64,000 nucleotides of DNA, from assembly GCA_964016885.1 (NCBI GenBank), contig OZ024740.1, positions 368,714,001 through 368,778,000 of the forward strand. The letters run 5' to 3'. Position numbers and translations under genes: made by a program. A model generated the notes under the pieces. It was not told where the DNA came from. It made no database searches and was given only the letters and a program-made list of their open reading frames with translations. Numbering within the stretch: position 1 is the first letter of the stretch; each line of letters starts with the position of its first letter. The stretch comes from Eledone cirrhosa (taxonomy: Eukaryota). Shown piece by piece: positions 2,723 through 57,045 of the stretch.

Positions 2723-2736
2723 GACAGACAGAAAAA

Positions 2737-8792: not shown

Positions 8793-8815
8793 TATTTATT
8801 AAAATAACAGATTAA

Positions 8816-11362: not shown

Positions 11363-11457
11363 TTAATCTGTTATTTTAATAAATATTTGCTCTACGGTTC
11401 TTATATATTTGATATATATTTATCCTTATCGAGCCCTCTTTGGATTTTAGTCTTAAC

Positions 11458-11459: not shown

Positions 11460-11490
<31 letters not shown>

Positions 11491-14400: not shown

Positions 14401-14626
14401 TTCTATGTCAGATCGGAGAAGGTTTATCTGGCGATTGATGTTCTCTTGCCAAGTAGATTTCTTGTGGGAATTCCTTTGTATTTTCATCTTCACTCCACAC
14501 AAGTGAGTGGTGACTTTAGCCGATGCATAATAGAGATGATTTAAATCAGTAATGTTTAGTTTGTTTGTGATGAGAAGTTTCTTTGGTTGTTTTTGAACAT
14601 ATTATTGTCCGTGTAGAATCTAGATC
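11460..14626 (-). mobile_element. 5'-truncated R4/Dong-like RLE retrotransposon, family A copy 2
   Basis: ORF pieces 13780-14502, 13219-13764 (RT, FYMDDLKLF), 12746-13153, 12302-12733, 11957-12151 (RHD..H) and 11634-11993 (RPD..D..K RLE). There is a 72-bp internal tandem duplication at about 13040-13190 and an (AAT)n tail at 11460-11489. Confidence 0.95.
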
Positions 14627-24970: not shown

Positions 24971-25618
24971 TACCACTCACTCTCTCTCTCACTTCCTCCA
25001 GTTTTACCTGTGTGAAATCCTTTTCTCGCTCACATCACACCCATGTCGGATGGTCTGTATCTCTCGTCCATGAATTCACCAAGCTTAAGCTTATAGATAT
25101 CATGTACTTGTCTCTTCCTATCTTTCCGTTGCAATATCATCTTTGTTTGTTTACATGTCTCGTTCGCTTCACTAACTTTATTTAGTTATTGCTCGCACCA
25201 ACCAGAAGTATATGATTTTTAAAGCGATGAAATACCAATGAAGGTTGGAAGATCACTGATGAAGGACGGGCAGACTAATTTGCATAGAACGTGAGTCATT
25301 GTACGCACCGGTTCAGGGGAAACGATAAAAACAAATAACGAAACGAAATTAAATTTCGTTTCGCTTCTAACTCACTTTTGTATGACTGACGCTTAAACAA
25401 TTAAGTTAAAGTGTACATCTACATATGTATACGGAAGTACTAGTATGAGTATAAATACACACATGTATACATATGTACATGTACCGAGTTTTTCACTAAA
25501 CACTTTACAGTGAGTGTCCAGCTAGTCTGTATGTAAACAAACAGACGAACCGGGTTTTAAAGTCATACGAGTTTTCAAGGAAACACACTTCCTCCACTCT
25601 CCAGAGAGCCAGACAGGA

Positions 25619-25661
25619 ATATTGGAATAGTTTCGATGTTATTACATCTCATCAGCAATAT
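25619..25661 (-). ncRNA. Minimal type-I hammerhead ribozyme (loop III mutated to CTAT)
   Basis: ATATTG CTGATGA GATG TAATAA CATC GAAA CTAT TC CAATAT on the minus strand. Confidence 0.75.
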
Positions 25662-26088
25662 ATACCCATCTTCCGGCTTCTCTGGAGAATCGTAAAAGCA
25701 CATATCGTTATATGCCTTTTCTATGAAAATCAGTAGTGGGCAGACTACTTTGCATAGAACGTGAGTCATTGTACGCACCGGTTCAGCGGAAACGATAAAA
25801 TCAAATAACGAAACGAAATTAAATTTCGTTTCGCTTCTAACTCACTTTTGTATGACTGACGCTTAAACAATTAAGTTAAAGTGTACATCTACATATGTAT
25901 ACGGAAGTACTAGTATGCATATAAATACACACATGTATACATATGTACATGTACCGAGTTTTTCACTAGACACTTTACAGTGAGTGTCCAGCTAGTCTGT
26001 ATGTAAACAAACAGACGAACCGGGTTTTAAAGTCATACGAGTTTTCAAGGAAACACACTTCCTCCACTCTCCAGAGAGCCAGGCAGGA

Positions 26089-26131
26089 ATATTGGACTAG
26101 TTTCGATGTTATTACATCTCATCAGCAATAT
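26089..26131 (-). ncRNA. Minimal type-I hammerhead ribozyme
   Basis: ATATTG CTGATGA GATG TAATAA CATC GAAA CTAG TC CAATAT: canonical core, 6-bp stem I, 4-bp stem II, palindromic CTAG in stem III, GUC cleavage triplet. Confidence 0.88.
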
Positions 26132-27399
26132 ATACCCATCTTCCGGCTTCCCTGGAGAATCGTAAAAGCACATATCGTTATATGCCTTTTCTATGAAAAT
26201 CAGTAGTGGGCAAATTAGTCTGCAAATTAGTGTGTTTCCTTGAAAACTCGTATGACTTTAAAACCCGGTTCGTCTGTTTGTTTACATACAGACTAGCTGG
26301 ACACTCACTGTAAAGCGTCTAGTAAAAAACTCGGTACATGTACATATGTATACATGTTAAAACCCGGTTCGTCTGTTTGTTTACATACAGACTAGCTGGA
26401 CACTCATGTAAAGTGTCTAGTGAAAAACTCGGTACATGTACATATGTATACATGTGTGTATTTATATGCATACTAGTACTTCCGTATACATATGTAGATG
26501 TACACTTTAACTTAATTGTTTAAGCGTCAGTCATACAAAAGTGAGCTAGAAGCGAAACGAAATTTAATTTCGTTTCGTTATTTGTTTTTATATATATAAA
26601 GATTTACATATACAAACTAAACAAAGTCCCACATATATATATATGTGCTTTGGCAACCATTCACGATGTGACTCAATAAAGAATTAATAAATTAAATACT
26701 CAGAGCAATATACTGTAAAGTATGTCCATAGAATCATGATTCTATGGACATACTCTATAGTATATACATATATATATTTATATAATATATATATATATAT
26801 ATATACATAAAGTTTAATATTGAAATAATTTCTACCGGACTAGAACTGTTTCATTCAAAATAATTCGTAAGCCATCTGTCGCTGTAAAACAGTCATATTT
26901 ATATATGTTCTGGTAGTTGGACTGTGCTCATTGGCCAAATAATTTTAAAGAATAGAGAATCTGTGAAATATTTGTTTGGTTATGTACACAGGAATACAAG
27001 GAAGAAAATTGATGTAAAGATTCACATTCACACATCCGTACACACTCAGGCACACAAACACATCCTCTGAACTCCCACACCATTACACGTGTAGACTGTT
27101 TTCAAGCGGGTATCTATACAAATGCGATTTATGCATGACTGATTATTGTCAGGCTTTGACCAAAAATGATGTTATCATTGAGTTATTACCACCTGTCAAA
27201 TCAATTATTGGTGACAGTAGTTGTATTAACAACATTAGCGGTGATATTAGTAGCAGCAGTGGTAGTTGGGACCAATGTGGCAGTGGTGTTAACGATGAGA
27301 GCAAACAAAATAGTATTTATAGTGGTACAGTAATGTTGATGTTGTTGCTGTAAACATTTATATATATATAATAGATGAGATGATGTCTTCCTGTTTCTT

Positions 27400-28976
27400 C
27401 TACAACTACAACGGTACGCGATGGGGCACACCCACATCCCCGGCGGACAGAATGGAGAAGGTGTTTACCCGGAGGACGGCAGGGTAGACACGCTGGAAAA
27501 GCCACTCCAACTCGCAGGGCTCACACCTGCGGCTGGCCAGCTCAGCGCCCATGGTGGTGAGTAAAAGGTAGACCTGGGGCCGAGGACACCAGAAGTCTCC
27601 ACTGCCAGGGGTACGACCGCAAATCTGACGTGCAGCAGAAACTGGGAAAGTCGAAGGCTGCACCAGGTTGCGGCTGCAGAAAGTGTCGGTGCAAGTGGCA
27701 TCCCAGACGAGGAGTTTGCCACCGAGGAACGGGAAGATGGTCATGTCATCTGGCCTTTTGCCATTCCCTCGATCCAGCCACACTGGCTCGAGCTGGGAAA
27801 GAACGCCTGCAGCGTCCAAGCCATGCTTAATGACCTCGTTGACGGCAGCATGGCGTGAAATGCGGCCAGCACTGTGGCGACAGAAAAGCGGGTGGAGGCC
27901 AAAAGATCCACGGTGGAACTGCATCGACATTGGTGTGGCTGGCAGATCCGGAGGCCGAATATCAGGAAAACGCCGATGCACAGGCTATGGTTGTCTAGCT
28001 GCGTGCCAGTGGAGAAGGGAGGCAGGGCATGGAGCGAGGCACCACTGTGGGGTTTGAGGGCTGCACGAAAACAAGCAAGGGGGTGCTGGTCAAGCTGGGG
28101 CATGAGCCTGTCTGAGGCCAGGCTGCACTGGATAACATCCCAAGTGAGTTGGGGAGACTTGACGTCAGGAGGGGGAGAAGGAAGAGAGGGAAGTCTACTA
28201 GGTTAAGTCCCAGCCGCTCCCACGTTCCACAGGCGGCCTCACGTTCTCTGAACACAGAGGGTTCTGTTATGTTTTGAAGAACCCTGCTGATGAGGACGCG
28301 GAAGTGATTACCGACGAAAGATACTCCGGCAAAGCTAGTGAGATCGGGGACCGGAGGCCAAGGCCGCCATACCTGACAGGTAAAGTGGCCTGTTGCCACC
28401 TTATGTCGTCAAACTTGACGTTGCATATTTCCTCGGCTACCGCGCAGATACAAGTATCGAGGTCGGCAAGGAGAGATGTATGGATGTAGCACGGAGCGCG
28501 GCATTGCGAAGCAGTTCCTCGGCAGAAAGAGAGTTGTGTAGCCGTCAATCAAGCCCAGTCGGCTCGTGAGAGTCTGCAGCTGTTGAAGTCTGGACCTGAT
28601 GGTGGAGCGGATGGCCGGCGGGTGGATCGGCGACGCGAGGATGAGAACATGCTCTTTGGGGGTTACCTGAACCTGGCGGAGAATGGACAGCATGTCTAAG
28701 ACGGAGGCTGCAAAGCTCGCAGCATCGAGGCTGACATTCACCACCTCCGACTTGGCCGAGATGCCCTGGATGCCAATTCCCGCCAGGGCAGGAACCACTG
28801 ATTGAAGGTCATAGCAGACCGTCCGAACGATCCCGCCCAGCGAGCCCGCCCAACGGGTCGCCATGTTGGACCCCAGTAGTCGACGGTATGACCGCATCAT
28901 CAGCAAGGGGCATGCTCGGGGTTCCATAAGACAGGTAGGCCAGAGAGTAGGCAGAGAGGGCTCGGTTGAGGATGCC
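27400..28976 (-). mobile_element. Decayed CRE-like RLE non-LTR retrotransposon (3' half)
   Basis: KSEV..LILASPI, QATLPVRYGGLGLR, SGA.L.A.P..GTQLD, CRC..VD..G.HPL.C..GRISRH..VN, EP..LDRGNGKRPD..IFPF..GKLLVWDAT. Same family and tail as 20745-21185. Confidence 0.88.
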
Positions 28977-31914: not shown

Positions 31915-34900
31915 ACCCCGTGACCAAGAAATACCGGGATGGCGGCCGGCGGGGAATAGCCATGTCTCTAGGGGAGAACGACCCCTCTACTCATGGTTGA
32001 CACTCGTTCTAGAAGTGGTAACACGAAAAGATTACCCCTTGGCGGATAAGGATAAAACGCGACAAAATAAAGTAGATGTCTAATGATGAAATCTCATACC
32101 GGATCGGCCGTCACCCGGGTAAAAAAGGGCCGCGTCCCTCAGAGAGGAACCAGACTGGGGTCGAAAAATCAGCTAATGGTTCAAACCTTCCCATCACTTC
32201 GGAGCTGGAGACCTCCCATAACCGGAATACTCCTACTGTTGGCCCTCCATGCTCACCACCAAGAAATCCAAAGAAAAAGAGAGAAAAATGGTCAAGGGAA
32301 GATAATAAAGAAGTCCTTGAGGCTTTCTACACTGCCATGTACTACCCATCAAATACATCGAATACAGAGCAAACATATATCAACTGGAAAAAGAAACATC
32401 CCGAAAACAGAGGCTATATTGACAGTAACAAACTAGCCAATATACGAAGAAATATTGTAAGAAAAAAGTTACTAACTGATATAGAAATTGATCAGATCAA
32501 GCTAGTAGCACAAAGTCAGCGAATGGAAAATGAAGCATGTGTCAGTGAAAACGAGGTAAACTGTAACACTTCGAATCCCAGAGTTGGGGCGGAATCACTG
32601 GCAACAGAACAAATTAAAGAAAGGAGCGAAAAAGTGGAGGGAGTGCATGCTCAGGATGAAACTCCAAATGAAAATAATGAGATCGTAAATGATAAAGAAA
32701 TGAATGAGAATGAACTTGCCAACTTGAAGGATGAAATTATGATCGAATGGAGGAAAATGAAAGAATCTGACATGGGGGAACGAGACACCCTCCCTAAGAT
32801 CCAGAACTCCAAACAGAACCAAAAGATAATACACAAGACTAACATAATTCTCAAAAACATTATCATCACAAACAAAATAAACATTACTGACTTAAATCAT
32901 CTCTATTATGCATCGGCTAAAGTCACCACTCACTTATGTGGAGTGAAGATGAAAAAACAAAGGAATTCCCACAAGAAATCTACTTGGCAAGATAACATCA
33001 ATCGCCAAATAAACCTTCTCCGATCTGACATAGAAATTTTAACAAACTATAAAGTAGGTGAACATGTTAAACAAACTAAACTTAGAAAATTGAAAAAAAA
33101 AGTACAGTATAAGATCAACATGTGACATAGACATGTTGATAGAAACAATCAAGCAAAAAGTGTCGGCCAAAGCTGTTCGTATAAGGCGCTTTGAAAAACG
33201 ATCTAGATTCTATAAGGACAATAATATGTTCAAAATCAACCAAAGAAACTTCTACAGAAAAATTGGTAAGTCAACAATAACTGCTAAATCAATACCACCC
33301 AAGGAGGAAGTGCAAGAATTCTGGGAAAAGATCTGGGCCGAAGAAAAAGTTCATAACATACATGCCCCATGGATAGACAGACAAATGAAAGAAACAGCTC
33401 ACCTTGAAGAACAAACATGGGAAAATATAACAGTTGAACAGCTGCGCTTGGCTCTAAGAAAAACCAGCAAATGGAAATCCCCAGGAAAAGACAAAATACA
33501 AAACTTTTGGATAAATGCCTTCACAGAGTCTCATGAGCTGTTAGCCCAACTTTACAATGAAATAGTTAAGGAGCCAGAAAAGATACCATCATGGCTAGTT
33601 AACGGCATTACATTCCTGCTACCGAAGAATGATGAGACAAACAATCCCAAAAATTACAGACCGATAACCTGCTTGACCACAATGTATGAAATTTTAACAT
33701 CAGTCCTAACTGAATACACATATGACCACCTGATAACAAATGACCTATTTCCCATTGAGCAGAAAGGGTGTAAACGAGGCTCATATGGCTGTAAGGATCA
33801 GCTTCTGGTTAACAAAATGATACTGGAAGATTGTCATAATAGACACAAAAATCTATCGATTGCTTGGATAGATTATAAAAAAGCATTTGATAGTTTGCCA
33901 CACAGTTGGATTGAAAAATGTTTAGAGATTTTCAAAATATCCCCCGTTGTCAGGAGGTTTTTGTCATTCAGTATGAGGACATGGAGAACGACACTCCTTT
34001 TGAATAGTGAAACAAAATCACTGGAAGCTGGAGAAGTTAACATTAATTGTGGAATTTTTCAGGGTGACTCTTTATCACCGCTTTTATTCTGCATCGCACT
34101 TATACCATTAAGTAAAATGCTCAATGAAACAAAACATGGATATAGAGTCTATGACAAAACCATTAATCACCTGTTCTACATGGATGACCTGAAACTATTT
34201 GCAAAAAATGATGAACAATTGCAAGGGCTATTATCCACTGTGAAGCAGTTCAGTGATGACATTAAAATGGAGTTTGGACTGGATAAATGCGCCAAAGCAA
34301 CGTTCACCAGAGGAAAGCTGCTGAAGAGTTCAGACATTAATCTTGATCGGGGAACGTGATAAGAGAGCTTGATCAAGAACAAACTTACAAATATCTAGGT
34401 GTTTGTGAAGGAGACGGAATCAAGCACTCGACAATGAGGGAAAAGATAAGGAAGGAATGTTACCGCAGAGTCAGAGCAATCTTAAGAACGGAATTGAATG
34501 CAAGGAATAGGATCGATGCCATAAACACGCTTGCCATACCAGTAGTAACCTACAGTTACAATGTCATCAACTGGTCAAGCACAGAGATCCGTAGGCTCGA
34601 TACAAAAATCCGAAAATTCTTAACCATGCACAGAATGCATCACCCTAAGGCAGACATAGATAGAATATATCTCCCTAGGAAAGAAGGAGGACGTGGGTTA
34701 ATCCAGTTAGACATTGCGTTGAAAACTGCAACAATTGGATTATCCACATATCTAAGGGAATCACATGATTGGATGATCAAACTCGTTTTGAAACACGAAA
34801 GCACCAAAAGATCATATTCCATTACAAAAGATGCACAAAGATACAGTAATGGACTACAAATTTCAGAAGTCCCATTTACTGCTGAAATGGAAAACACAGA

Positions 34901-35884
34901 AAAAGCAAAGCAGGTAAAAGTAACTGCAAAGAAAGAACTGCTACAGAAACTGGCTAAGAAATGGCAAGAAAAGCCTCTGTATGGAAAATACCCAGAGCGA
35001 GCTAACAATCCTGATGTTGACAAAACTTTAACCCATCAGTGGTTGGCATCCTCTGGACTGAAATCGGAGACTGAAGGACTGATTATATCCGCACAAGATC
35101 AGTGTCTGCCAACAAAAAATTACCAAGCCAACATAATAAAAAATGGGTGCAGCCCATTATGCCGTGTATGCAAAAAACAACCAGAGACCATTGACCATAT
35201 AATTTCAATGTGCAGTCCTATAGCTCCAACCGAATACCTAAACAGGCATGACAGAGCTGCACAATACATACATTGGATAATGTGTAAGCATTTTGACCTG
35301 CCCCATCAAAAGAATTGGTGGGAGCATCAACCACCTCCCATACTTGAAAAAGATCACATCTCAATCTTGTGGAACTTTAGCATCCAAACAGACCGAAAAA
35401 TAGATGCAAATAGACCTGATATAATATTGAAGGACTTTCAAAGGAGGGTATGCCTGCTAATTGATATGTCTGTTCCAATAGACAAGAATGTATCTATAAA
35501 AACATTTGAAAAATTGAGCAAGTATAAGGACCTGGAGATAGAAATTGGAAAAATGTGGAAATTGAGAACTAAAACAATACCAGTGGTTGTAGGCGCTCTG
35601 GGAATGATACCTAAGGGGTCTAACGACTACTTATCGCAAATCCCAGGAAACCCGCGTATAGGAGAAATACAAAAGATAGTACTAATGGGAACTGCCCATA
35701 TACTAAGGAAGATCCTGTCAATATAAGTACATCACAAGTCTAAACACTAAGTATGCATGTGTGAATATGTATGTTCTTTCTTGAACATGGCGGACCTTGT
35801 TGTCTCTTGAGGTCACTGGTTGTGACTTGGTGATAACTCCTTAAACATAAAGCAAGATAAATGCAAATAATAATAATAATAATG
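31915..35884 (+). mobile_element. Near full-length R4/Dong-like RLE retrotransposon, family A copy 3
   Basis: 5' UTR, one long ORF split by two homopolymer frameshifts, a 3' UTR shared with copies 1 and 2, and an (AAT)n tail. Confidence 0.96.
32076..35726 (+). pseudogene. RT + CCHC zinc knuckle + restriction-like endonuclease polyprotein (about 1215 aa if two frameshifts are repaired)
   Basis: ORFs 32076-33125, 33133-34359 and 34356-35726: KWSRED N-terminal motif, [31 protein letters not shown]...C, RHD, RPD..D..K. Confidence 0.93.
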
Positions 35885-36077
35885 ATTTCTTTATTAACCA
35901 CAAGGGTTTACATAAAGTAGACATTAATGACAGTACAGGACAATAGAGGAAGGTACAAATGGGCATTTCTGCGTGTAAAAAACAAAAACAGAGGATGTAA
36001 CAAAAAAAATAACAATGAATAATTTCCAAATAGGGAGGACATTTGTGGAGAAAGCCCATTAAAAGGCCACAGTGACC

Positions 36078-37514: not shown

Positions 37515-38790
<1,276 letters not shown>

Positions 38791-42640: not shown

Positions 42641-43536
42641 CGAAACTGGATGATACCACCGAATAGAACCCGCGGTGGTATCGTAGAACGCATATTCTGG
42701 AATGTTAGAATGAAGATGGGAATCAATCCGGACGGATCAGTGAGTTACGAATGTGTTTAGTAATTGAACCCCAGCACATACATATGCTTTCCCGCCTATG
42801 GTCGGATACGTATTTAATCAGACCTAATACATAACGTATTATTGGTAAAACAGATGTATTGACATATATATTTTCTGTACATTAACCACTCTGCTTATTT
42901 GCAATCTATTACTTAAAAACTTTCCCTTTTAATTTATTTTTCATTTGTGTGTTATACTGAATCTTGATAATTGAAATATTTTGTGTTATTACTGCTTCCT
43001 TCATTACAGTGATATTAATGTTTTAATCATGCAGCAATCTTCTATTTTGTTACGCCAATTTTTTAGAACCCAACACAAATTTAACATGTAAATGTGCAAC
43101 ATTACTTCCTACATACTCTCACATTAAATATTCATACCTTTTTCGATGAAAGTTGTATTAGTTCTCTTCTAATTCTAACTGAAGACCTATGAGAAAAATA
43201 TTAGTTTCGCTGCGTTACATTATCATTATTGTGTTTTCATTCCACTACCGGATTAGTGCTCTGCGTGATGAATGTGGTATAAAGTGTGATGTGATACTTA
43301 CAGGAAAAGTCATATCACGAAACAAAAACAGCAATTAACAACATGTCTAAAGAATACGTTTATTAGAAACACAACAGCAACAAATGAAAGAGAACTACCG
43401 TTTTTGAATACGCAATAATGAAATGGGTACAGCCAGAGTCACGATCAACAGAATTCACGAAATAAAAGTCACATGTCAATATTTGAACATGTCAAATATC
43501 ATATGTTAAACGCAATATTTCATGCAGTGTGATACG

Positions 43537-43597
<61 letters not shown>

Positions 43598-43721
43598 GGG
43601 AGGGTCATATTTGCGTAATATTGCCAGAATTAATAACAGAACACACTCACTGTTTGGTTGGTTTTCGCTTCTCGCTGTCTTTTATATATATATATCTGCG
43701 ATCTAACTAATTCATCGCCGC

Positions 43722-43826
<105 letters not shown>

Positions 43827-44047
43827 CGTTTCTGAATTTGTTTAGCAAGATTCTTTATCTGAAATCGTGTGTTGAAACCGATATTGTTATACTTTGGGAG
43901 GGTCATGTTGCCAATAAGAAACACACGCACCAGTTGCTTTCACTTCAATTTAATTTATTAAATATTTATAAGTTTACAAATTTATAAATTTATAAATTTC
44001 TGGTTGGTTGGTTGGTTCCACAACCAGATAGTTGTTTATATATATAT

Positions 44048-44092
44048 AGTCATAGTTCTTTCGTCACACACTCTGTGACCTCTTCAGTGACT
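44048..44092 (-). ncRNA. Minimal hammerhead ribozyme (inverted copy)
   Basis: Reverse complement of 44315-44359. Confidence 0.7.
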
Positions 44093-44314
44093 GGGGATTT
44101 CTTTCTTCGTTTCTGTGCCTTTCCTTTCTTCTATCCTACGCCATTTTGTTTGTGTGTGGGTTGCGTGCTCAGTTTGCGCATGCGCCACATCCGGGTGTCT
44201 GTGTGTGTGTTTGTGTTCATTTTTCTATTTTTCTATTTATATTTTTTTTATATACAAACAAAATGGCGTAGGATAGAAGAAAGGAAAGGCACAGAAACGA
44301 AGAAAGAAATCCCC

Positions 44315-44359
44315 AGTCACTGAAGAGGTCACAGAGTGTGTGACGAAAGAACTATGACT
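44315..44359 (+). ncRNA. Minimal type-I hammerhead ribozyme
   Basis: AGTCA CTGAAGA G GTCAC AGAGTGT GTGAC GAAA GAAC TA TGACT. Confidence 0.75.
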
Positions 44360-44556
44360 ATATATATATAAACAACTATCTGGTTGTGGAACCAACCAAC
44401 CAACCAGAAATTTATAAATTTATAAATTTGTAAACTTATAAATATTTAATAAATTAAATTGAAGTGAAAGCAACTGGTGCGTGTGTTTCTTATTGGCAAC
44501 ATGACCCTCCCAAAGTATAACAATATATATATATATATATCTATATATATATATAT

Positions 44557-44616
<60 letters not shown>

Positions 44617-44861
44617 GTAAGTATGCATGTATAGGTACATACATATATGTATACAGACGTACAGTAGCATGCACATATATATATATATATATATATACAT
44701 ATATACATACATATGCATACAGGTACACATACATATATGCACGTATCAGTTTAGCGGCGCTAACGTCGCTTTGTTCGTTTGTAAACAAACTGAACAGCCT
44801 GAATTTATGCCATACGGTGTTAAGGCAACCACGTCACCTTTTTGTTCAACACTGACACAGG

Positions 44862-44906
44862 AACGATGTACTAGTTTCAAGCTTGTTAGCTATCATCAGC
44901 ACCGTT
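44862..44906 (-). ncRNA. Minimal type-I hammerhead ribozyme, unit 1
   Basis: AACGGTG CTGATGA T AGCT AACA AGCT T GAAA CTAG TA CATCGTT. Confidence 0.85.
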
Positions 44907-45327
44907 TACCCATCTGCCAGATAGTTGAACGTTCGAAAGTATATACTTTCCTTATGAAAATTAACGGCTGAGCAGCCTCATTTGCATATTGAGTGAGTTA
45001 AATCGGTCAGGCATACCGAAAACGATAAATTGAAACAAAATGAAAACGAAATTTCATTTCTCACTCTTAGTATGGCACTTACTTAAATGTAAGTATGCAT
45101 GTATACGTACATACATATATGTATACAGACGTACAGTAGCATGCACATATATATATATATATACATATATACATACATATGCATACAGGTACACATACAT
45201 ATATGCACGTATCAGTTTAGCGGCGCTAACGTCGCTTTCTTCGTTTGTAAACAAACTGAACAGCCTGAATTTATGCCATACGGTGTTAAGGCAACCACGT
45301 CACCTTTTTGTTCAACACTGACACAGG

Positions 45328-45372
45328 AACGATGTACTAGTTTCAAGCTTGTTAGCTATCATCAGCACCGTT
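45328..45372 (-). ncRNA. Minimal type-I hammerhead ribozyme, unit 2
   Basis: Identical motif 466 bp downstream of unit 1. Confidence 0.85.
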
Positions 45373-45793
45373 TACCCATCTGCCAGATAGTTGAACGTTA
45401 GAAAGTATATACTTTCCTTATGAAAATTAACGGCTGAGCAGCCTAATTTGCATATTGAGTGAGTTAAATCGGTCAGGCATACCGAAAACGATAAATTGAA
45501 ACAAAATGAAAACGAAATTTCATTTCTCACTCTTAGTATGGCACTTACTTAAATGTAAGTATGCATGTATACGTACATACATATATGTATACAGACGTAC
45601 AGTAGCATGCACATATATATATATATATACATATATACATACATATGCATACAGGTACACATACATATATGCACGTATCAGTTTAGCGGCGTTAACGTCG
45701 CTTTGTTCGTTTGTAAACAAACTGAACAGCCTGAATTTATGCCATACGGTGTTAAGGCAACCACGTCACCTTTTTGTTCAACACTGACACAGG

Positions 45794-45838
45794 AACGATG
45801 TACTAGTTTCAAGCTTGTTAGCTATCATCAGCACCGTT
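45794..45838 (-). ncRNA. Minimal type-I hammerhead ribozyme, unit 3
   Basis: Identical motif a further 466 bp downstream. Confidence 0.85.
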
Positions 45839-46139
45839 TACCCATCTGCCAGATAGTTGAACGTTCGAAAGTATATACTTTCCTTATGAAAATTAACGGC
45901 TGAGCAGCCTAATTTGCATATTGAGTGAATTAAATCGGTCAGGCATACCGAAAACGATAAATTGAAACAAAATGAAAATGTATATATATATGTATATATA
46001 TATATATATTTGCATGCTACTGTACGTCTGTATACATATATGTATGTACGTATACATGCATACTTACATTTAAGTAAGTGCCATACTAAGAGTGAGAAAT
46101 GAAATTTCGTTTTCATTTTGTTTCAATTTATATATATAT

Positions 46140-46237
<98 letters not shown>

Positions 46238-46274
46238 TATATACTTCCCCATATATATATATATATATATATAT

Positions 46275-47278
<1,004 letters not shown>

Positions 47279-47373
47279 CTATTTATATATATATATGTGT
47301 GGGTGTGTGTGTGTGTGTGTATATATATATGTGTGTATATATATATATATATATACACACAACTCTATTCTTT

Positions 47374-47500
<127 letters not shown>

Positions 47501-47509
47501 GTATATATA

Positions 47510-48983
47510 TAGCCTAGGCAAAGAAATGTACATCTTCAGACCTGTTCGACGTCTCCCTGGGATCGTTTGACAATGCTGACGTATGTGACTTGGTTGGCCT
47601 TTTTATCTTAGACATATTACGTGTTAGATTCCCGGACTTCCACACGGGAATATACCGTGACAATGGACTGACTTTATCGAGCCATAAAAGTGGTCACGAC
47701 CTCGACCGGTTTAACAAATTCTTAGCTTCTACCCTCAATAAGTTAGGCCTTATGATAACAGTAGCCACCAACCTCTCTAGTGTAGATTTCTTAGACATTA
47801 ATTTAGACCTTCGCACACACACCCACAGGCCCTTCCATAAGCTAAACGATATAACGATATAATTACATTCACAAGGACTCATGCCACCGTTCCACTGTTT
47901 TTAGAAACTCCGTTAAGAATATCAGTACTAGAATCTCAAACCTCTCCTCTAATAAGTCTATATTTGACAGGGCGGCACCCTACTATAGCACGGCGTTGGA
48001 TAACAGCGGCTTCTCACAACCTATCACCTACTCTCCAACTAGCAAACAACACCATTAAGAAAAGTAAGCGCATCAATAGACAAACTATCTGGTTCTCTCC
48101 TCCATTCTCACTCAAAGTTAAAGCCAATGTAGGAAAACAATTTCCTGCCCTCTTAGATAGACACTTCCCCATAGGTCATAAATACCGCTCCATCTTTAGC
48201 CGACACAAAGTTAAACTAGGATACTCCTGCGCCGAGAACATGAAGGCCTACATCACCAGCAGCCCTAGGAGCAACACCCCACCAGGGTGCTCTTGCCGTA
48301 ATCCTGAAGCATGCCCCTTCAACAGCAATACAACACACCAGCTGTAATCTATGAAGCTGTGGTCACTTCCAACCGACCAAACGAACCACAGGAGATCAAA
48401 TCCTATGTGGGCATGGCGGAGGGCCGATTCAAGGAGCGTTTTCTTAACCACCAGTCTACCTTCAGATACCCGGACAGACGTTCAACCAGGAAACTCGCGA
48501 GCCACATATGGTCCCTCAAGGACTCAAGTATAGGCTACTCCATTCAATGGAAAGCCATCACTAAGTCCAAGCAATACGCAAGGGGAAATCCGACGTGTGG
48601 CTTATGTATTGACAAACGAACAACTATCCCAAAGAGATTACGCAATAGTGATTGCCTAAACACGAGAAGTGAATTTTACACACGTTGTCCACACGTCACC
48701 AAACGTATGTTGCATAACTACCAGGCTCAGGACTGATTCTTTGTAATTTTATTGCTAATTTTTTTTTTTCAACCTAAAAACTTTTCGGACTTTCGCAGTT
48801 ATGTCCCTTACATCTCCCGCACGCAGTCTAGTATGGCCTGTGTGAAGTGACCGAGTTTCTGCGCATGCGCGTTCGTACGGTTGTCCTTCTTGTTCCTATA
48901 ACCATACACATCCCGAGCTGAAGATCCGCGAAGGTGAAACAATTGTTCTCGGTATGGTGAACTAACTGTTGTGTAACCACTTC

Positions 48984-48985
<2 letters not shown>
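47510..48985 (+). mobile_element. 5'-truncated Penelope-like element (RT C-terminus + GIY-YIG) with a 3' HHR
   Basis: [47 protein letters not shown]...CP, IY..SYVGM.EG.FKER..NH, CGLC; flanked by (TA)n. Confidence 0.92.
48901..48958 (+). ncRNA. Type-I hammerhead ribozyme at a PLE 3' end
   Basis: CCGAG CTGAAGA T CC GCGAA GG T GAAA CAATTG TT CTCGG; stem I can extend with ACCATAC/GTATGGT. Confidence 0.8.
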
Positions 48986-49016
<31 letters not shown>

Positions 49017-49180
49017 ATATATGTGTATATATATATATATATATATGTGTATATATGTGTATATATGTGCGTATATATATATGTATGTATGTGTGTATAT
49101 GTATATGTGTGTGTATGTGTATATGGGTGTGTGTGTGTGTGTATATATATAGTGTGTGTTTATATGTATACATTTGTATG

Positions 49181-49223
<43 letters not shown>

Positions 49224-49931: not shown

Positions 49932-50538
49932 AATACATTATGAAGAGAGAAGAAACATTTAGATATAATTAGTAATAAAATGTATCATACCTAAACTGCT
50001 CCTAAATTCCTCGACTACGTAGTTTGGTGGCATAAACAAAAACAATATATCAAAGATATAGAGTCCTTGCGAGGTCTGCCGACTTATCAAGAGGATACCT
50101 CATTTTACTAGTCTCAAGAACGCGTCTACACGACGTGAGAAAGAATCCCAAAAGGCGGAGGGGGAGATAGTCACGCGATATAACGGTCGAGAAACAGAGC
50201 TAAGCCTCTTATAACCACGAAGAAAATACCACGGAGGCGGAGGGGGTATTCATATCGAGGCCGTAGAAGAGGTAGTGAAGAAGGCGAGAAGTATGAGTAA
50301 TGGAAGCTTTCCAGTTGTCCCCACACTTCAAAGATTGCTCGACCACAGGGAGTTATTAACAATATATTTAGAAACCTCTTGATAAGTCGGCAGACCTCGC
50401 AAGGACTCTATATCTTTGATATATTGTTTTTGTTTATGCCACGAAACTACGTAGTCGAGGAATTTAGGAGCAGTTTAGGTATGATACATTTTATTACTAA
50501 TTATATCTAAATGTTTCTTCTCTCTTCATAATGTATTA
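49932..50538. mobile_element. pLTR-like insert with about 163-bp inverted ends, each carrying an HHR variant
   Basis: 49932-50094 is the reverse complement of 50375-50538; the right end abuts (TA)n. Confidence 0.8.
50375..50460 (+). ncRNA. Hammerhead ribozyme with a U3-A8 core and long stem II
   Basis: CCTC TTGATAA GTCGGCA..(44 nt)..TGCCAC GAAA CTACGTAG TC GAGG. Confidence 0.7.
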
Positions 50539-50560
50539 TATATATATATATATATATATA

Positions 50561-50680
50561 TAATAGGAAGGAGTAAGACCCCGACGGCTGAGCTCAAACC
50601 GTTTCGACGGCTAATTCTGTCCAAAATTAGCCGTCGAAATTGCTTGAGCTCAGCCGTCGGAGTCTTACTCATTCCTATTA
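50561..50680. repeat. About 55-bp-arm GC-rich hairpin within a (TA)n-flanked insert
   Basis: taataggaa.gagtaagac.ccgacggctgagctcaa..ttcgacggctaatt and its reverse complement. Confidence 0.88.
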
Positions 50681-50854: not shown

Positions 50855-52890
50855 TAAAATAACAGATTAAAGTTTAAGCAAAGAATCGCTATTGATGGTT
50901 ACTTCCCCTCAGTTGCCAGGTTTTGTTTGCAAGGTTAGTTACATAACGAGGCTGGGAATGTTTCATTGCGTAACGGTGTGTATACCAACGGCTTTAAATA
51001 TATTCACAGTCGCTCCGATGTAATACCATTTCTGGTTGTCTGATTCCACTGTGCATTGGTAAACCAGGTTAGACTGCATACATTCATTATGTAATGGACA
51101 GGTTTCATGTAGGTGGCAGTTACAATTCTTGTCATGGGCAACTTTGGCATTATTGTTGGGCTGCGATGCCTGTACAAGTGTGTTACATTTTTTTGGCATA
51201 TTACTGCGTGGTTGTGTATTAGATATTCTGTTGTGTTCTATGGTGATTGTATTGTTATTGTTGTACATTTGTGTTCTGGTGGTGTTATGTATATGTTTAG
51301 CGTTAAACATCTTAATGTGTGCCTCTATATTTGGTGCCGTGGAGTAAGATAGTCTAATAGATATAGTATTAAGTATTTTGCTGTATCTATGTAAATCTGG
51401 AAAGTGCTTATTTATTATTCTAAAGAAGGTAGAGGGTATGTTACTACTAATAGGGGTGTTAAATATGGGGCTATACCAAACATACTTTCTACTGCGTGAC
51501 TTGTTTGATTCCGATGTTGTATTTCTATTTACTGTATACTTTGTAGTTCTATGCGTAAGTGCGTGTGTGCGTGTGTTTCTGGAGTTTGTGTTATGCGTGT
51601 TCGGGTGCGCTTTGCAGAGGCTTTCATCTATATATTCTACTCTATCTAAGTGGCCTGCCTTGTATAATGCGGTATTGTAGTATTCTGCCTGTTCCTCGGT
51701 TAGACGAGAGGCGGGATATCCTAAGGGATATGCTTCGTGGAATGGATTTAATTATGGATAGTGGGTGGTTTGAGTTACAGTTGATGTATGCTAAGTTTTC
51801 ATTAATCTTGTGAAAAGATCTTATACGTCCTGTATTTAGGTTAAGCGTCGCGTCTAGAAAGTTAACCGTTTTAGTGGTATACTCATACGTTATGCTAAGG
51901 CCTAGTTTCCCGAGAATCTTTCTAATATTCTTACGGAGTTTTTCTATGCTCTGGTTATTTAGGAGAAGGGCGTCGTCTCTGTAGATTCCACCGTGAAAGA
52001 CGCTAACCTCACTCTGTAAACTATGGGCTATGTAAATACCTACTAAATCTGTGACTTGAGCCGAGTCGTTAGCCTCCATCGTGATGTCAAAGTTATTTAA
52101 TCTATCCTTACGTTCCCAATAGGCGTTTACAAATTTAATTATTGTTTTCCAAGCAGCTAATATGATTTTTATCTCGTCGTCTGTTAGGACAGAACCGTCT
52201 TTGGCGAATGCTAAGGCTTTATCCAAGGTGTTGGGGGATATAGAAGAGTAATAGTCGTTAATGTCAAATTGTATAAATTTAGATACATTTTTGTTAGCTA
52301 TATTGTTAAACCACTTAATCGTTTCGGTAGCGTTACCCCATAGTTTAATCAATAGTTTATTCTTCATTTGTGCTATCACTCTAATATATGTTTACTAATT
52401 TTCCCGATGTCCGATTTGGACGGGCATATAAGTCTAATTGTGGGGTTATAATCAAAATTTACCTTGTTATCCTTGAGATTAAATGTGGGGGTTCATGGCC
52501 TAAGTGGCTCCGTTCTGTCGTCTATTCATAGGTGTTTGACTATATTGTGTGCCTCGTTGTTGATGTTTATCAGTGCCGCCTCATTAGTGTTTTTGTATTT
52601 CCTATGTAATTATTTCCGTATGAAAATTTTGTATGTAATAATATCCATCGAATACACATTTGAGGTTTTGTCCGCTTTGACAATAATTCCATGGCTGCTA
52701 TTTGCAGTATAGCAATATAAGATTGCACTTACCAATGAAACGGTCGTAAATACCTGGATAAAATCCTTCTCTTAATGCTTACCTGTGTTTTCTCTTTTAT
52801 ACTTTATTCTCCAAGATTGATCGGAATTCTTACAAACTTGTGGAGTTACCCCTAACCGTACGTTGAAGCCGTCCATGAACTAGATCACAA
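50850..52890 (-). mobile_element. Decayed Penelope-like element (RT + partial GIY-YIG)
   Basis: ORF 51642-52379 (FIQFDINDYYSSI, DLVGIYI, GIYRDDAL, VNFLDATLNL, SNHP) and 50963-51310 (CNC...CPL...C...LVYQC...YYIGAT); flanked by (TA)n. Confidence 0.92.
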
Positions 52891-52925
52891 TAAGCAATGT
52901 TCTGCTCCCCTAACGATATATATAC

Positions 52926-53021
<96 letters not shown>

Positions 53022-53028
53022 TTATATA

Positions 53029-53136
<108 letters not shown>

Positions 53137-53167
53137 ATGAATCAAAGAACTGTTCAAAACATTATTG

Positions 53168-53214
53168 TGCTTACAGCTGTTTCCTCCAAACCGAGGTTTG
53201 GATTCTTCGGAGCA
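53168..53214 (-). ncRNA. Hammerhead-like motif, CCGAAGA core (copy)
   Basis: Reverse complement of 54596-54642. Confidence 0.6.
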
Positions 53215-54595
53215 ATTTATTAATGCATGGACAGTTATATGACCTCCTTTTCAGCCGAGAGACATACCAATACATATTCAAACATTGATACATATTCAAA
53301 CATTGTGGGTCAACATTCATTACAGAATTTAGAGTGGCAGTACACACTTCGAGATTACATTTATATTAATAGGTACAATCAAAAAAATCAAAGATATAGG
53401 TTAAAGTACAACATGAAGATAAGTGGTTATATAGTGCAAATGTTATATGTGTGGCACGCATGTGCGTCTTGTTTATATAGTGTGGCAGAGAGATATGTGT
53501 GGTAGAGGCACTTAGGTAGGTAAATAAGAGTGTTAGGTTGGTAGATCTGGTGGCAAAGTCTTTATATGATTGATATAGTCTGTGTGTGGAGAAATATTAT
53601 AAGCATTAAAGATAGTGCAAGCATTAAAAGTGTTATAAGTATTGGAGATGCACAGCGCAGGGATGTCAAGTAATTCATGTACTTCGGTATTTTCATGGTC
53701 AAGGGAGTGTATATTTCGATTATATGCCTTTCACATAATCCACGACAATCCAGTTAGAGATCGTAGTCTGGTGCTCTTTAGTTCGATACAGGTGGTTGTT
53801 ACGTTTCGAGAGACGCCATTGAATACCGGAAGTGTGTGTGTGGCTAAGGGGAGTTAATGCATGCGGGGAGGTAACTCTGGGGTTTCTATATCTAGCCATT
53901 AAAATGTGTCTCAATATAGACCCTAAATTCTATGGTGAGGTGCACCTTCCAAGAGAGACTTTTAAAGCATAAAGTGTACTAACTATAGAGTAGTTTAACT
54001 AAATTATGCTGAAGGTGATCATATTATTATTAGGGTGGATTAACCCATCTTAAGGTGCTACAAATGGAAATTATAGATGATGAGCGAGGATTCTAAATTA
54101 ATGATCTCTATGGTTGTAGTCTGCTCATATGACCAGGCGCGGTGATTGCAGGATTGCTTCAGGACCCAATGATCTCTGGTAAGATCCGGGTCATCGCTTG
54201 CTACATTGGATGTCGACAGATAATCATCCCCAAGCAGGCCAAAGGTCAAGTCGCAGTCCTCGCGACCCCTCTCTGACCGTCAGATCATCCATATACGTAC
54301 AACCCGCACGGCAGTTGCATTGCATTCACTCACTGCGCTCAGCGGCCTGGTCCTACTGGTCAACAGCGCTACTCGATTAAATCATTTTACATCTGTCTAA
54401 GGAAGGTGTTTCCTCTGCCCAACACCATCCAACCGATCAATTGATGCTCAAATTACCCTTAGAGCGGCGTAGTGCCGTCCAGGTGGGTGGATGTTGTCAC
54501 ACCTGCCGTAGAGGTATAAATGGGTATTTTCCCTGCGTATTGGTATGTCTCTCGGCTGAAAAGGAGGTCATATAACTGTCCATGCATTAATAAAT

Positions 54596-54642
54596 TGCTC
54601 CGAAGAATCCAAACCTCGGTTTGGAGGAAACAGCTGTAAGCA
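54596..54642 (+). ncRNA. Hammerhead-like motif, CCGAAGA core
   Basis: TGCT CCGAAGA A TCCAAACC TC GGTTTGGA G GAAA CAGCTG TA AGCA. Confidence 0.65.
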
Positions 54643-54843
54643 CAATAATGTTTTGAACAGTTCTTTGATTCATATATTTCATATAACTGCTCTGTAAATC
54701 ATCTGATGTTTTTACATTGAGCTACTTAACTTACTGGTAATAAGGTAGTAATACATTACTGCCTACCACTATTTAGGGTGTGTGTAAAATACTTACAACT
54801 GCTTAAGGTTTTGTGTTTACATAACCATAAATAGTATAACTAA

Positions 54844-54927
<84 letters not shown>

Positions 54928-55228
54928 ATTTATGTGGGCGTGTGTGGGTGCGTGTGTGTGTGTGTATGTTTGTGAATGTGTCTGTTGTCACCTGGATTTT
55001 AGCTTAAGAGTAATTTGAAGATACTGATATGATAGGCACCCAATCTTTGGAACTGGTCTAAGGAATTCGTTTGGCCTTTGTCACTCTAAATATAACTTAT
55101 AGCTTTAAAGAATTAGCGTTTAATGAATTCCCTTTTCTATCAACCAATGACCTCTACCCATCCCACTGCCTGCCCTCTCCTACCACCTGAACAGACCTAT
55201 ATAGACCACCTTTATTTTTGGATACCCT

Positions 55229-55348
55229 GATTCCTGATGATTTCTAAAGAATGAAGCAGTTCTAGTCGTGTATAATCTCATCTATTAAGACTATATATAT
55301 ATATATTATGATTTCTAAAGAATGAAACAGTCCTAGTCCTGTAGAATC
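55229..55348 (+). ncRNA. Two tandem, individually damaged hammerhead copies
   Basis: Consensus of the two: GATTC CTGATGA T TTC TAAA GAA T GAAA CAG..CTG TA GAATC. Copy 1 has GAAG and copy 2 lacks the 5' half. A related remnant lies on the minus strand at about 26830-26860. Confidence 0.55.
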
Positions 55349-55434
55349 TCATCTATATTAAAACGTTTATACTCTACAATGCATTGAGTACCTTACTTAC
55401 TGTGGTTACCTCCGATTCAACCCTGAATAACGTA

Positions 55435-55486
<52 letters not shown>

Positions 55487-55526
55487 GAGAGTATTGAAGT
55501 TTGCTTAAAGCATTGTGGAATAATAA

Positions 55527-55974
55527 GTAAATATCTTTAAGTCGTTTGAAAGCCTCGACAATGCAAATGGGTAAATCTCCGGGTAACAAGATCCGGTGGT
55601 GGAGAAAGAGATGTAAGTGGGTGTACGTTGAGATGCGTGGTGTGTATAAGACGTGTACAAAAAACAACAAACAGCGGAGGACGCGTTTCGCACCTTTTCG
55701 ACAGACAACGTTTCCCCCACCCCGGAAAAAAACCCCAGTTGATGGCTGTGAATCCGAAATATATAGGGACAATTAAATCTCTCCCAAGGTAACTCTCTCG
55801 TGTTGTTATTTTTATTTAATCCTTTTTACTCTTTCCTTCATTCTTCTACACGTCTTATACACACCACGCATCTCAACGTACACCCATTTACATCTCACTC
55901 TCCAGCACCAGATCTTGTTACCCGGAGATTTACCCATTTGCATTGTTGAGGCTTCCAAACGACTTAAAGATATT

Positions 55975-55977
<3 letters not shown>
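55527..55977. repeat. About 130-bp-arm inverted repeat within a (TA)n-flanked insert
   Basis: gtaaatatctttaagtcgtttg..gacgtgta matches tacacgtc..caaacgacttaaagatatttac. Confidence 0.88.
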
Positions 55978-56031
<54 letters not shown>

Positions 56032-56640
56032 GTGTGAAGCATTATATAAAAAATAAATTACAATGATATTAACGACGATCGATGAGTATGGCGAAATATT
56101 TTAAAGGTGAATTATTAAGCATTTCCTTCCTAATAGCAACATATCATGTCATAATATTCTGAAATGGATTATCAAAGAACTAGAAGGATATAACGAAAGA
56201 GTGACACCAAAAGATAGTGGCTCTACATTCAACACGTAACGTATTATAGAGGGAAATGGTATATCTGTATTCTCCATGCAGCTTGAGAACTAGTATCACA
56301 TGAATACCGCACACACACACTGCAATTCTCGAACAAATCACAGGATGCTATCATTCTACAAGGCAGCTAATAAATAGAATAAAGATATCTAAATTAGGTG
56401 TCAGTTATAGAGAGAAAGAAGAAACAACAAATACTGTGAAAGATAGGATGTGTTCCTAAAAACAGACAGCGAATTCTATCCTAATTTAAAGTTTAAATAG
56501 AAATAAAAGTCACTAATATCTGAGGAAAAATATAAAGTTAAACAGAGAAAAGTTGTAAATGCGCATGTATGTATATTAAGGATGTATGTGTGTATGAGCC
56601 TGACTATGATACATGTGTGTGTACGTAAATGTATCACTAG

Positions 56641-56701
<61 letters not shown>

Positions 56702-56739
56702 AGGAAGTGATAGTTCACTTGAAGCATTGTGTAATGAGG

Positions 56740-56979
56740 TATAAACGTTTGTATATGTATAATAAATCCAACACAATGCAGGTATGGACTTGGAAAGGTA
56801 TTTAGAAGACTGGTCTAAACGCTTTACTTCCCTCCGAAGAAGAGATATTATCTCGAAATTTAAGGACATTTAAATAAATCTAAGGTAAAAGACTAATTGT
56901 CAACAATATCTTTTGCATTTGCATTCTTTATTCTATATCCATACCTGCATTGTTTTGGCTTTATTATACATATAAAAAC

Positions 56980-56986
<7 letters not shown>
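56740..56986 (+). mobile_element. Short pLTR-like insert with about 48-bp inverted ends and a degenerate HHR
   Basis: Arms 56740-56788 / 56938-56986. CCGAAGA A GAGAT ATT ATCTC GAAA lies at 56834-56858, with stem III eroded. Confidence 0.55.

Positions 56987-57045
<59 letters not shown>

What the first reader, a model, noticed from the sequence alone, without database searches (positions are those of the whole stretch)
44613..46130. 466-bp non-coding tandem trimer with an intact hammerhead in every unit (retrozyme/circRNA-like)
Seen: three near-identical units, each with AACGGTG-CUGAUGA-U AGCU AACA AGCU U-GAAA-CUAG-UA/CAUCGUU on the minus strand, exactly 466 nt apart, with no ORF. The array ends in an inverted partial unit and sits in (TA)n. 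Known: a palindromic CUAG stem III is the signature of HHRs that cleave as dimers, which tandem copies allow. Inference: transcripts would be cut into 466-nt monomers that can circularise, and the array could be a rolling reverse-transcription product of such a circle.
Basis: partly seen in the sequence, partly recalled or inferred. Interest (0 to 1): 0.85.

Follow-up and report, generated by a model that had tools for sequence, protein, structure and literature searches.

The report
Penelope-inserted hammerhead retrozyme array
A 466-base non-coding repeat lies here three times in a row, each copy carrying a predicted self-cutting RNA motif, and was likely pasted in by the enzyme of a Penelope-type jumping gene; it is a new example of a known kind of RNA parasite (a retrozyme), and neither cutting nor an RNA circle has been shown.

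Summary
In detail: 2.9 units of 466 bp, 98% alike, each with a type I hammerhead on the minus strand, plus an inverted partial arm, in (TA)n. A sister family (470 bp, about 62% identical) 19 kb away changes both partners in 5 of 17 hammerhead pairs, which supports the fold. It meets the sequence-testable criteria of metazoan non-LTR retrozymes (PMC7229834; bioRxiv 2026.07.22.740005). An inverted 5'-truncated arm, two 3' ends 58-59 nt apart, (TA)n targets and nearby Hydra-type Penelope fragments point to Penelope machinery. Neither arm starts or ends at the cut site, so the template crossed it three times: a circle (favoured) or an uncut multimer; one locus cannot separate these. Both families keep an octamer and a TATA-like box upstream of the ribozyme, a possible internal promoter. 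Against: U·U replaces the usual G-C at the base of helix II, and cleavage, transcription and circles are untested. This scan already reported the same kind, including 466-470-bp units, on other DNA of this genome. Verdict: real; new member of a known kind.

The parts
44612..45978 (-). Long arm, family A: 2.9 tandem 466-bp units; starts at monomer position 289, crosses three cut sites, ends at position 251 in (TA)n (position 1 = first base after the cut)
44862..44906 (-). Type I hammerhead, unit 1 (helix I to helix I; predicted cut after 44869)
45328..45372 (-). Type I hammerhead, unit 2 (predicted cut after 45335)
45794..45838 (-). Type I hammerhead, unit 3 (predicted cut after 45801)
45446..45453 (-). 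Exact octamer motif (also 44980-44987 and 45912-45919), monomer position 348; candidate promoter element
   Evidence: motif recalled, function untested
45406..45411 (-). TATA-like box (also 44940-44945 and 45872-45877), monomer position 390, 27 nt before the start of the extended helix I
   Evidence: function untested
45556..45676 (-). Alternating purine-pyrimidine tract inside each unit, predicted long hairpin
45978..46131 (+). Inverted 5'-truncated arm, monomer positions 157-310, ending in (TA)n 58-59 nt beyond the end of the long arm
44523..44611 (.). (TA)n target tract, left; shared with the end of a family C insertion
46129..46275 (.). (TA)n target tract, right
25268..26224 (-). Sister family B: two 470-bp units, one hammerhead each (cores at 26096-26125 and 25626-25655; the second has a broken helix III palindrome)
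26229..26591 (+). Inverted pieces of family B; the outer one ends in a TA run at the position homologous to the family A inverted end
46280..46860 (+). Adjacent degenerate Penelope-like fragment (linker and GIY-YIG part); no similarity of its 3' region to the unit
   Evidence: (GIY-YIG E 0.025, below cut-off)
47518..48983 (+). Degenerate Penelope-like element with CxCX5C linker (Hydra type) and its own, different minimal hammerhead at 48918; candidate helper type

Best explanation
This is a young insertion of an abundant non-coding hammerhead repeat (a non-LTR retrozyme) whose RNA is predicted to cut itself into 466-nt pieces and which was likely written into a (TA)n tract by a borrowed Penelope-type enzyme, most likely from a circularised piece. 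Shown by the sequence: tandem units, a hammerhead per unit with compensatory changes against a sister family, an inverted truncated arm, two 3' ends 58-59 nt apart at TTTA(T) sites fused to (TA)n, and arms that ignore the cut site. Inferred: (1) transcription, perhaps from an internal octamer/TATA block (about 0.35) or by read-through; (2) cleavage at GUA mainly as double hammerheads pairing through the palindromic helix III (about 0.7); (3) closure of monomers by a host RtcB-type ligase, as shown for axolotl and mussel retrozymes; (4) a Penelope GIY-YIG nuclease, probably Hydra clade, nicks (TA)n, both DNA ends prime at two fixed sites on the RNA, one cDNA runs 2.9 times round and the other stops after about 155 nt; the two are joined back to back. 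Class assignment (retrozyme moved by Penelope machinery) about 0.8; the circle as template is the weakest step.
For: Array and motifs. Fold: 5 of 17 pairs change on both sides between families A and B, 96% of cells paired, 2 of 500 shuffles as high, slid controls 31-50% (only 3 distinct rows). Monomer folding z -8.6, and -4.1 without the purine-pyrimidine tract (50 shuffles). Canonical rather than Penelope-minimal layout (PMC4209133). Insertion footprint matches the published PLE pattern of an inverted 5'-truncated copy, a tail on one end and (TA)n targets (Craig 2021); the family B inverted arm ends at the homologous site; both family C insertions share two ends about 57 nt apart. Three of six PLE-like peptides examined show the CxCX5C linker of the Hydra clade. 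Each A unit has 2 private substitutions and none is shared between units, as expected if all units were identical at insertion. One run lays 7724 contig pieces on the 2-kb stretch across a range of identities, so the unit belongs to a large family; that run may be the window's own source.
Against: U·U replaces the highly conserved G10.1-C11.1 pair in family A; the axolotl motif with this mismatch cut only 22% as a monomer (PMC7229834), and 8 of 9 predicted Xenopus dimers did not cut. In the predicted ensemble of the full monomer the three inner helix I pairs have probabilities of only 0.18-0.28. Rfam score far below cut-off. The tail is 57-59 nt, longer than the 30-40 nt published for PLEs. 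In family B the long arm ends at position 357, not in (TA)n and not at the site homologous to family A. No A-to-G editing marks: 0 of 6 private changes in A, 1 of 9 differences in B is A/G. Identical units at insertion are equally expected from a homogeneous linear multimer. No target-site duplication can be read in (TA)n. No intact helper ORF is in the window.
Confidence: 0.55

Rival explanations
1. Same element and same Penelope machinery, but the template is an uncut or partly cut linear multimeric transcript primed near a natural 3' end (four T4 runs lie at monomer positions 289-378, around the inverted-arm end at 310); no circle is needed.
For: Weakened helix II base and low predicted occupancy of the active fold; most Xenopus dimers did not cut; autonomous PLEs make partial tandems and inverted arms of the same shape; T4 runs near the ends.
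Against: The hammerhead is kept with compensatory changes over 62% divergence; tested retrozymes of coral, mussel and axolotl all gave circles; all three units descend from one haplotype, although the family is heterogeneous.
Confidence: 0.25
2. The unit is the pseudo-LTR of an autonomous Penelope-like element elsewhere in the genome, and this locus is a truncated insertion that never reached the ORF.
For: Insertion footprint is that of PLEs; 24 of 57 Xenopus retrozyme families match known transposons, nearly all PLE ends; a PLE fragment lies 150 nt away.
Against: Three units follow one another without coding DNA; the unit has no similarity to 5 PLE 3' regions of the window (z -2.4 to 0.7); its hammerhead is canonical, whereas the PLE-linked motif at 48918 and family C look minimal.
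Confidence: 0.1
3. A monomer or dimer was inserted and then grew in place by unequal crossing-over, as a minisatellite (the scenario discussed by Li et al. 2026).
For: Local amplification is proposed in the preprint; the array is short.
Against: No substitution is shared by two units against the third in a way that marks a duplication: every unit carries its own 2 changes; the inverted arm and fixed ends need retrotransposition anyway.
Confidence: 0.08
4. The trimer is an assembly duplication of a single unit.
For: Tandem repeats in (TA)n are hard to assemble; no record laid spans the whole stretch.
Against: Units differ by private substitutions; a diverged family has the same tandem-plus-inverted layout in the window.
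Confidence: 0.02

Closest known systems
Metazoan non-LTR retrozymes (coral, mussel, axolotl; Cervera and de la Pena 2020, PMC7229834; parts 2-4 of 6 read, supplement not readable)
   Same: Short tandem non-coding units, one type I hammerhead each, GC below 50% (35.8%), strongly self-paired monomer, co-occurring PLEs; axolotl HHR_Amex2 has the same U·U mismatch at the base of helix II and a 2-bp helix III.
   Different: Unit slightly above their 150-450 bp range; inverted arm, fixed ends and a conserved octamer/TATA block are not described in the parts read; no expression or cleavage data here.
Retrozymes as non-autonomous PLE derivatives (Li, Clavereau, Pollet 2026, bioRxiv 10.64898/2026.07.22.740005; parts 1-3 of 5 read, supplements closed)
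   Same: Meets their definition (two or more consecutive units with a complete motif; 51-972 bp; most families up to seven units); PLE link.
   Different: Their evidence is co-occurrence and pLTR homology in Xenopus; here the link is the insertion footprint, and no homologous pLTR was found in the window.
Penelope-like elements, Hydra clade (Craig et al. 2021, 10.1101/2021.04.23.441226; passages read)
   Same: Partial tandems, inverted 5'-truncated copy, tail on one end, (TA)n target, hammerheads; neighbouring fragments have the CxCX5C linker.
   Different: No ORF in the unit; tail 57-59 nt rather than 30-40; canonical rather than minimal hammerhead.
Newt satellite 2 (Coats, Zhang, Epstein 1994; paper not held, seen only as cited in PMC2220036; review passages PMC6155905)
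   Same: Tandem hammerhead repeat that cuts as a dimer; reported internal snRNA-type promoter, which the octamer here recalls.
   Different: No sequence relationship tested; promoter activity and a proximal sequence element not shown here; a TATA-like box is present.

Membership tests
Non-LTR retrozyme | Tandem units of a few hundred bp (150-450 in PMC7229834; 51-972 in the 2026 preprint) | tested here: met
   466 bp x 2.9; inside the wider range, 16 bp above the narrower
Non-LTR retrozyme | Complete type I hammerhead in at least two consecutive units | tested here: met
   3 of 3 units, helix I 6-7 bp, helix II 4 bp plus U·U, helix III 2 bp; Rfam score below cut-off
Non-LTR retrozyme | No protein coding | tested here: met
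   48 aa longest on the ribozyme strand; a 100-aa microsatellite-like frame on the other strand is broken in unit 2
Non-LTR retrozyme | No primer-binding site or polypurine tract | not tested
   No LTR-internal-LTR layout is visible, but PBS/PPT were not searched
Non-LTR retrozyme | GC below 50% and a highly self-paired monomer | tested here: met
   GC 35.8%; z -8.6, or -4.1 without the purine-pyrimidine tract; prediction only
Non-LTR retrozyme | Self-cleavage of the transcript | not testable with these tools
   needs in vitro transcription
Non-LTR retrozyme | Expressed as linear and circular monomers | not testable with these tools
   only assembled contigs of runs of unrecorded kind were available
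Non-LTR retrozyme | Target-site duplication longer than 4 bp when present | tested here: inconclusive
   both ends lie in (TA)n
Autonomous Penelope-like element (pLTR) | Repeat attached to an RT plus GIY-YIG ORF | tested here: not met
   no similarity to 5 PLE 3' regions of the window; the rest of the genome was not available
Autonomous Penelope-like element (pLTR) | Minimal hammerhead (extra base between 9 and 10.1, long helix II, short helix I) | tested here: not met
   families A and B have the canonical layout
Penelope-type insertion | Inverted 5'-truncated copy at the 5' end, tail on one end, microsatellite target | tested here: met
   tail 58-59 nt, longer than the published 30-40
Newt satellite 2-like self-promoted repeat | Internal snRNA-type promoter | tested here: inconclusive
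   octamer in 3 of 3 A units and 1 of 2 B units, TATA-like box in both; host snRNA promoters not available; activity untested
Viroid-like RNA replicon | Ribozymes on both polarities, RNA-only existence | tested here: not met
   motif only on the minus strand of the array; element is genomic DNA

The most novel reading that the evidence does not exclude
A self-sufficient RNA parasite in 466 bases: each unit carries its own octamer/TATA promoter that starts just before the ribozyme, the RNA cuts as a dimer and closes into a circle, and a Hydra-clade Penelope enzyme copies that one circle from both ends of a break in (TA)n, at two fixed priming sites about 58 nt apart. This would overturn the statement that retrozymes lack promoters (PMC7761336) and give a readable record of the Penelope integration step. 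A bolder add-on, about 0.05: the unit travels between species, since runs under two other organism labels each hold one unit-long contig almost identical to this array.
Probability: 0.22. Interest if true: 0.72.

Novelty: new member of a known kind. Interest (0 to 1): 0.4.

Why it matters
The class is known, but its life cycle is still a proposal: PMC7229834 names PLEs as 'a strong candidate' helper and the 2026 preprint says the mechanism remains to be worked out. A young, short insertion with two mappable 3' ends, a diverged sister family and a candidate helper clade next door gives exact predictions (cut site, priming sites, start site) that can be tested with a 1-kb construct. If the octamer/TATA block drives transcription, retrozymes are promoter-bearing SINE-like parasites rather than read-through passengers. 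This locus alone adds one more case to many already noted by this scan in the same genome.

Tried and rejected
Rfam: 0 hits at gathering score over the window; E-value scan of 43500-49200 gave 119 rows, nearly all microsatellite-driven miRNA matches, and HH9 at E 0.81 on the three motifs. No whole genome is held, so copy number, end statistics and host snRNA promoters could not be examined. Sequencing runs: no RNA holder listed (6 holders, 3 studies, kind not on record), which says nothing on expression. In one search the two runs under other organism labels gave no real cover of the neighbouring family C edge or the PLE fragment; a hole proves nothing, so I do not use it; whether those runs hold other repeats of this genome, and how family B is covered, stays open. 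Metagenome contigs: 0 matches to the shared motif. Viral contigs: 23 matches to a looser motif, 0 of 23 with helix I of 3 bp or more and no BLAST hit to the unit, so chance. Protein search with the adjacent PLE fragment against longer proteins: 58 candidates, none at E 0.001; Pfam gave only sub-threshold GIY-YIG hits in 2 of 10 peptides, so the Hydra label rests on the linker motif. Editing scars suggested by earlier notes: not seen; among 34 variant rows inside the array, 4 are A-to-G and 4 U-to-C on the ribozyme strand. Conservation of the core among family variants: 1 of 27 distinct variant positions falls in the 17 core positions and it is the free position 7, but about 1 is expected by chance, so weak (7 rows not shown). 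A first stem-check script had an offset error and missed families A and B; corrected. The core-like motif at 40880 fails helix I. Look-up of the unit by sequence and by place in earlier findings gave nothing. Literature searches for a retrozyme promoter: 0 papers with retrozyme + promoter + octamer, 1 irrelevant with hammerhead + proximal sequence element + satellite; octopus + hammerhead ribozyme + Penelope: 2 hold the terms, 1 listed. Coats 1994 and Lunse 2017 are not held; unread supplements of PMC7229834 and of the preprint may list this family or similar ends.

Full report
Observation. The array is there: 44612-45978, period 466, 2.9 copies, 98% matches. Each unit carries on the minus strand a type I hammerhead with the cut triplet GUA ending at 45801, 45335 and 44869, so two complete 466-nt monomers lie between cuts. 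The core pattern matches 4 times in the window, against 0 in 100 shuffles. An inverted partial copy lies at 45978-46131 and (TA)n flanks both sides. GC is 35.8%; the longest ATG frame is 48 aa on the ribozyme strand and 100 aa on the other, the latter mostly purine-pyrimidine repeat and broken in unit 2. Rfam does not call the motif (HH9 18.5 bits, cut-off 52). The setting is an animal-type genome rich in microsatellites and decayed retroelements; earlier scan notes call it a probable octopus genome, which I did not test.

A sister family. A second array, 25268-26224, has two 470-bp units. It aligns with family A over the whole unit: 62% identity by BLAST, E 3e-31, global score 342 against 142 +/- 13 for 200 block shuffles; 309 of 435 aligned columns are identical. 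On the five hammerhead copies (3 distinct rows), 5 of 17 pairs change on both sides, 96% of cells pair, 2 of 500 shuffles reach this and slid controls give 31-50%. With two families this is one comparison, but it is what selection on the fold predicts. One of the two B motifs has a broken helix III palindrome.

The ribozyme. Helix I has 6 bp plus an internal loop and an invariant 4-bp extension, helix II 4-5 bp, helix III 2 bp with a palindromic loop. This is the 'canonical' metazoan layout that cleaves efficiently when two motifs pair, and not the minimal layout of PLE pseudo-LTRs (PMC4209133, passages). Closing helix III in one motif costs about 5.4 kcal/mol in the energy model, and the palindrome pairs between two motifs at -4.8. 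Against activity: family A has U·U where G10.1-C11.1 is usual and family B has G-C; the axolotl motif with that mismatch cut 22% as a monomer and better as a dimer (PMC7229834); 8 of 9 predicted Xenopus dimers did not cut; the inner three helix I pairs have probabilities 0.18-0.28 in the folded monomer, helix II 0.91-1.0. The monomer is strongly self-paired (z -8.6; -4.1 without the purine-pyrimidine tract; -2.8 for the opposite strand; 50 dinucleotide shuffles each).

The insertion footprint. Counting from the cut, the long arm starts at 289, crosses three cut sites and ends at 251; the inverted arm covers 157-310. Both 3' ends fall on TTTA(T) and run into (TA)n, 58-59 nt apart. PLE insertions are described as partial tandems with an inverted 5'-truncated copy at the 5' end and a 30-40-bp tail on one end, and Hydra-clade elements insert in (TA)n (Craig 2021, passages). 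The family B inverted arm ends at the homologous site (B position 300) in a TA run; its long arm ends at 357, 57 nt beyond, but not in (TA)n, which I cannot explain. An unrelated hammerhead repeat, family C (43824-44526 and 8434-8755), has the same two ends in both insertions, about 57 nt apart. Three of six PLE-like peptides examined have the CxCX5C linker that defines the Hydra clade; Pfam support is sub-threshold and all are decayed. The unit is not the 3' repeat of any of them: local scores against 5 PLE 3' regions and family C lie at z -2.4 to 0.7, and a profile of A and B finds only the two arrays and microsatellites. The element at 47518-48983 has its own, different motif at 48918.

Age and family size. 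Each A unit has 2 private substitutions (unit 1 also 6 extra TA bases) and none is shared: about 0.4% divergence, units identical at insertion, and not an assembly stutter. Six public runs from three studies hold 58-79% of 67 sampled words. Four were laid on 44400-46400: X1 gave 7724 contig pieces (2225 at 99% or more, 2554 at 95-99, 2320 at 90-95, 625 below), some on neighbouring repeats, with several sites near 50% alternative letters, so the unit belongs to a large family with subfamilies; X1 may be the window's own source and depth is no copy number. X4 and X5, under other organism labels and studies, each hold one contig of 470 and 486 nt matching 44722-45092 with 1 and 2 differences, one being unit 1's private change. 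Related species, contamination or an abundant RNA could each explain this; the kinds of the runs are not on record.

Possible promoter. An exact octamer (motif recalled) lies at monomer position 348 in 3 of 3 A units and at 340 in 1 of 2 B units; a TATA-like box follows at 390 (A) and 381 (B), 27-29 nt before the start of the extended helix I (417 and 410). Ten other octamers occur in the remaining 61 kb, about 0.08 per unit length, and the octamer block is one of 8 identical blocks of 8 nt or more between A and B, so this is a lead. Newt satellite 2 is reported to have an snRNA-type promoter (cited in PMC2220036; primary paper not held), whereas a review says retrozymes seem to lack promoters (PMC7761336, section 9). 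The TATA-to-helix spacing was prompted by an earlier scan note (e1-8804837).

Mechanism. Shown: anatomy, covariation, ends. Inferred: transcription; dimer-assisted cutting to 466-nt monomers; ligation by a host RtcB-type enzyme, as shown in vitro for axolotl and mussel; nicking of (TA)n by a PLE nuclease and priming from both DNA ends at two fixed sites; 2.9 turns on one side and 155 nt on the other. Because no end coincides with the cut, a cleaved linear monomer is not a sufficient template without template jumps; a circle or an uncut multimer is needed. I favour the circle (0.55 against 0.25) because the ribozyme is conserved, tested relatives make circles and all units derive from one haplotype of a heterogeneous family; one locus cannot settle it. 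Editing marks that earlier notes used as evidence for circles are absent here (0 of 6 changes in A; 1 of 9 differences in B is A/G).

Known or new. It meets every sequence-level criterion of non-LTR retrozymes that I tested (PMC7229834, parts 2-4 of 6; preprint 10.64898/2026.07.22.740005, parts 1-3 of 5); cleavage and expression are untestable here. PLE mobilisation is proposed in both papers. The two-ended footprint and the promoter-like block were not described in the parts read, and searches found no paper on them, but supplements were not readable and most subscription papers are not held. This scan has reported the same kind repeatedly on other DNA of this genome, including 466-, 467- and 470-bp units with two arms and fixed ends; those are unchecked notes, used as leads. 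Verdict: real, a new member of a known kind, interest 0.4.

Noticed in passing
window 25268-26591: Sister retrozyme family B (470 bp x 2, two inverted pieces). Its long arm ends 57 nt beyond its inverted end and not in (TA)n, the mirror of family A; an 8-nt micro-inversion of the octamer block sits at 26209-26223.
   Followed up: partly
window 43824-44526 and 8434-8755: Family C: palindromic two-armed insertions of another hammerhead repeat (motifs at 44320+ and 44087-, extra base before helix II, PLE-minimal type); both insertions share two ends about 57 nt apart. It shares a (TA)n tract with family A.
   Followed up: partly
window 47518-48983, 46280-46860, 9458-10380, 50963-52391, 61484-62371: At least five decayed Penelope-like elements; three show a CxCX5C linker (Hydra type). 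The one at 47518 ends in a minimal hammerhead at 48918 with a palindromic loop III, 40 nt before (TA)n; the one at 9458 is framed by 529-nt inverted repeats (8793-9321, 10858-11385).
   Followed up: partly
window 11468-14580 and 32855-35886; 15035-18207 and 28976-31627; 2735-5072: Several copies of two non-LTR retrotransposon families (RT plus a C-terminal restriction-like endonuclease, judged by eye), one pair about 97% identical, ending in (TAA)n.
   Followed up: no
window 37515-38790, 49932-50680, 52924-57045: Many further inverted repeats with microsatellite centres or ends, possibly more PLE-type two-armed insertions.
   Followed up: no
window 40880 (minus): Hammerhead core boxes with a long helix II region but no helix I; probably decayed or chance.
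   Followed up: partly
runs X4 and X5 on window 44722-45092: Runs under two other organism labels each hold one unit-long contig (470 and 486 nt, depth 7-10) that equals or nearly equals the array consensus; origin unexplained.
   Followed up: partly
window 44621-44971 and 45559-45903 (plus): Stop-free frame of about 115 codons antisense to the ribozyme, mostly purine-pyrimidine repeat, cut short in unit 2; probably spurious.
   Followed up: partly
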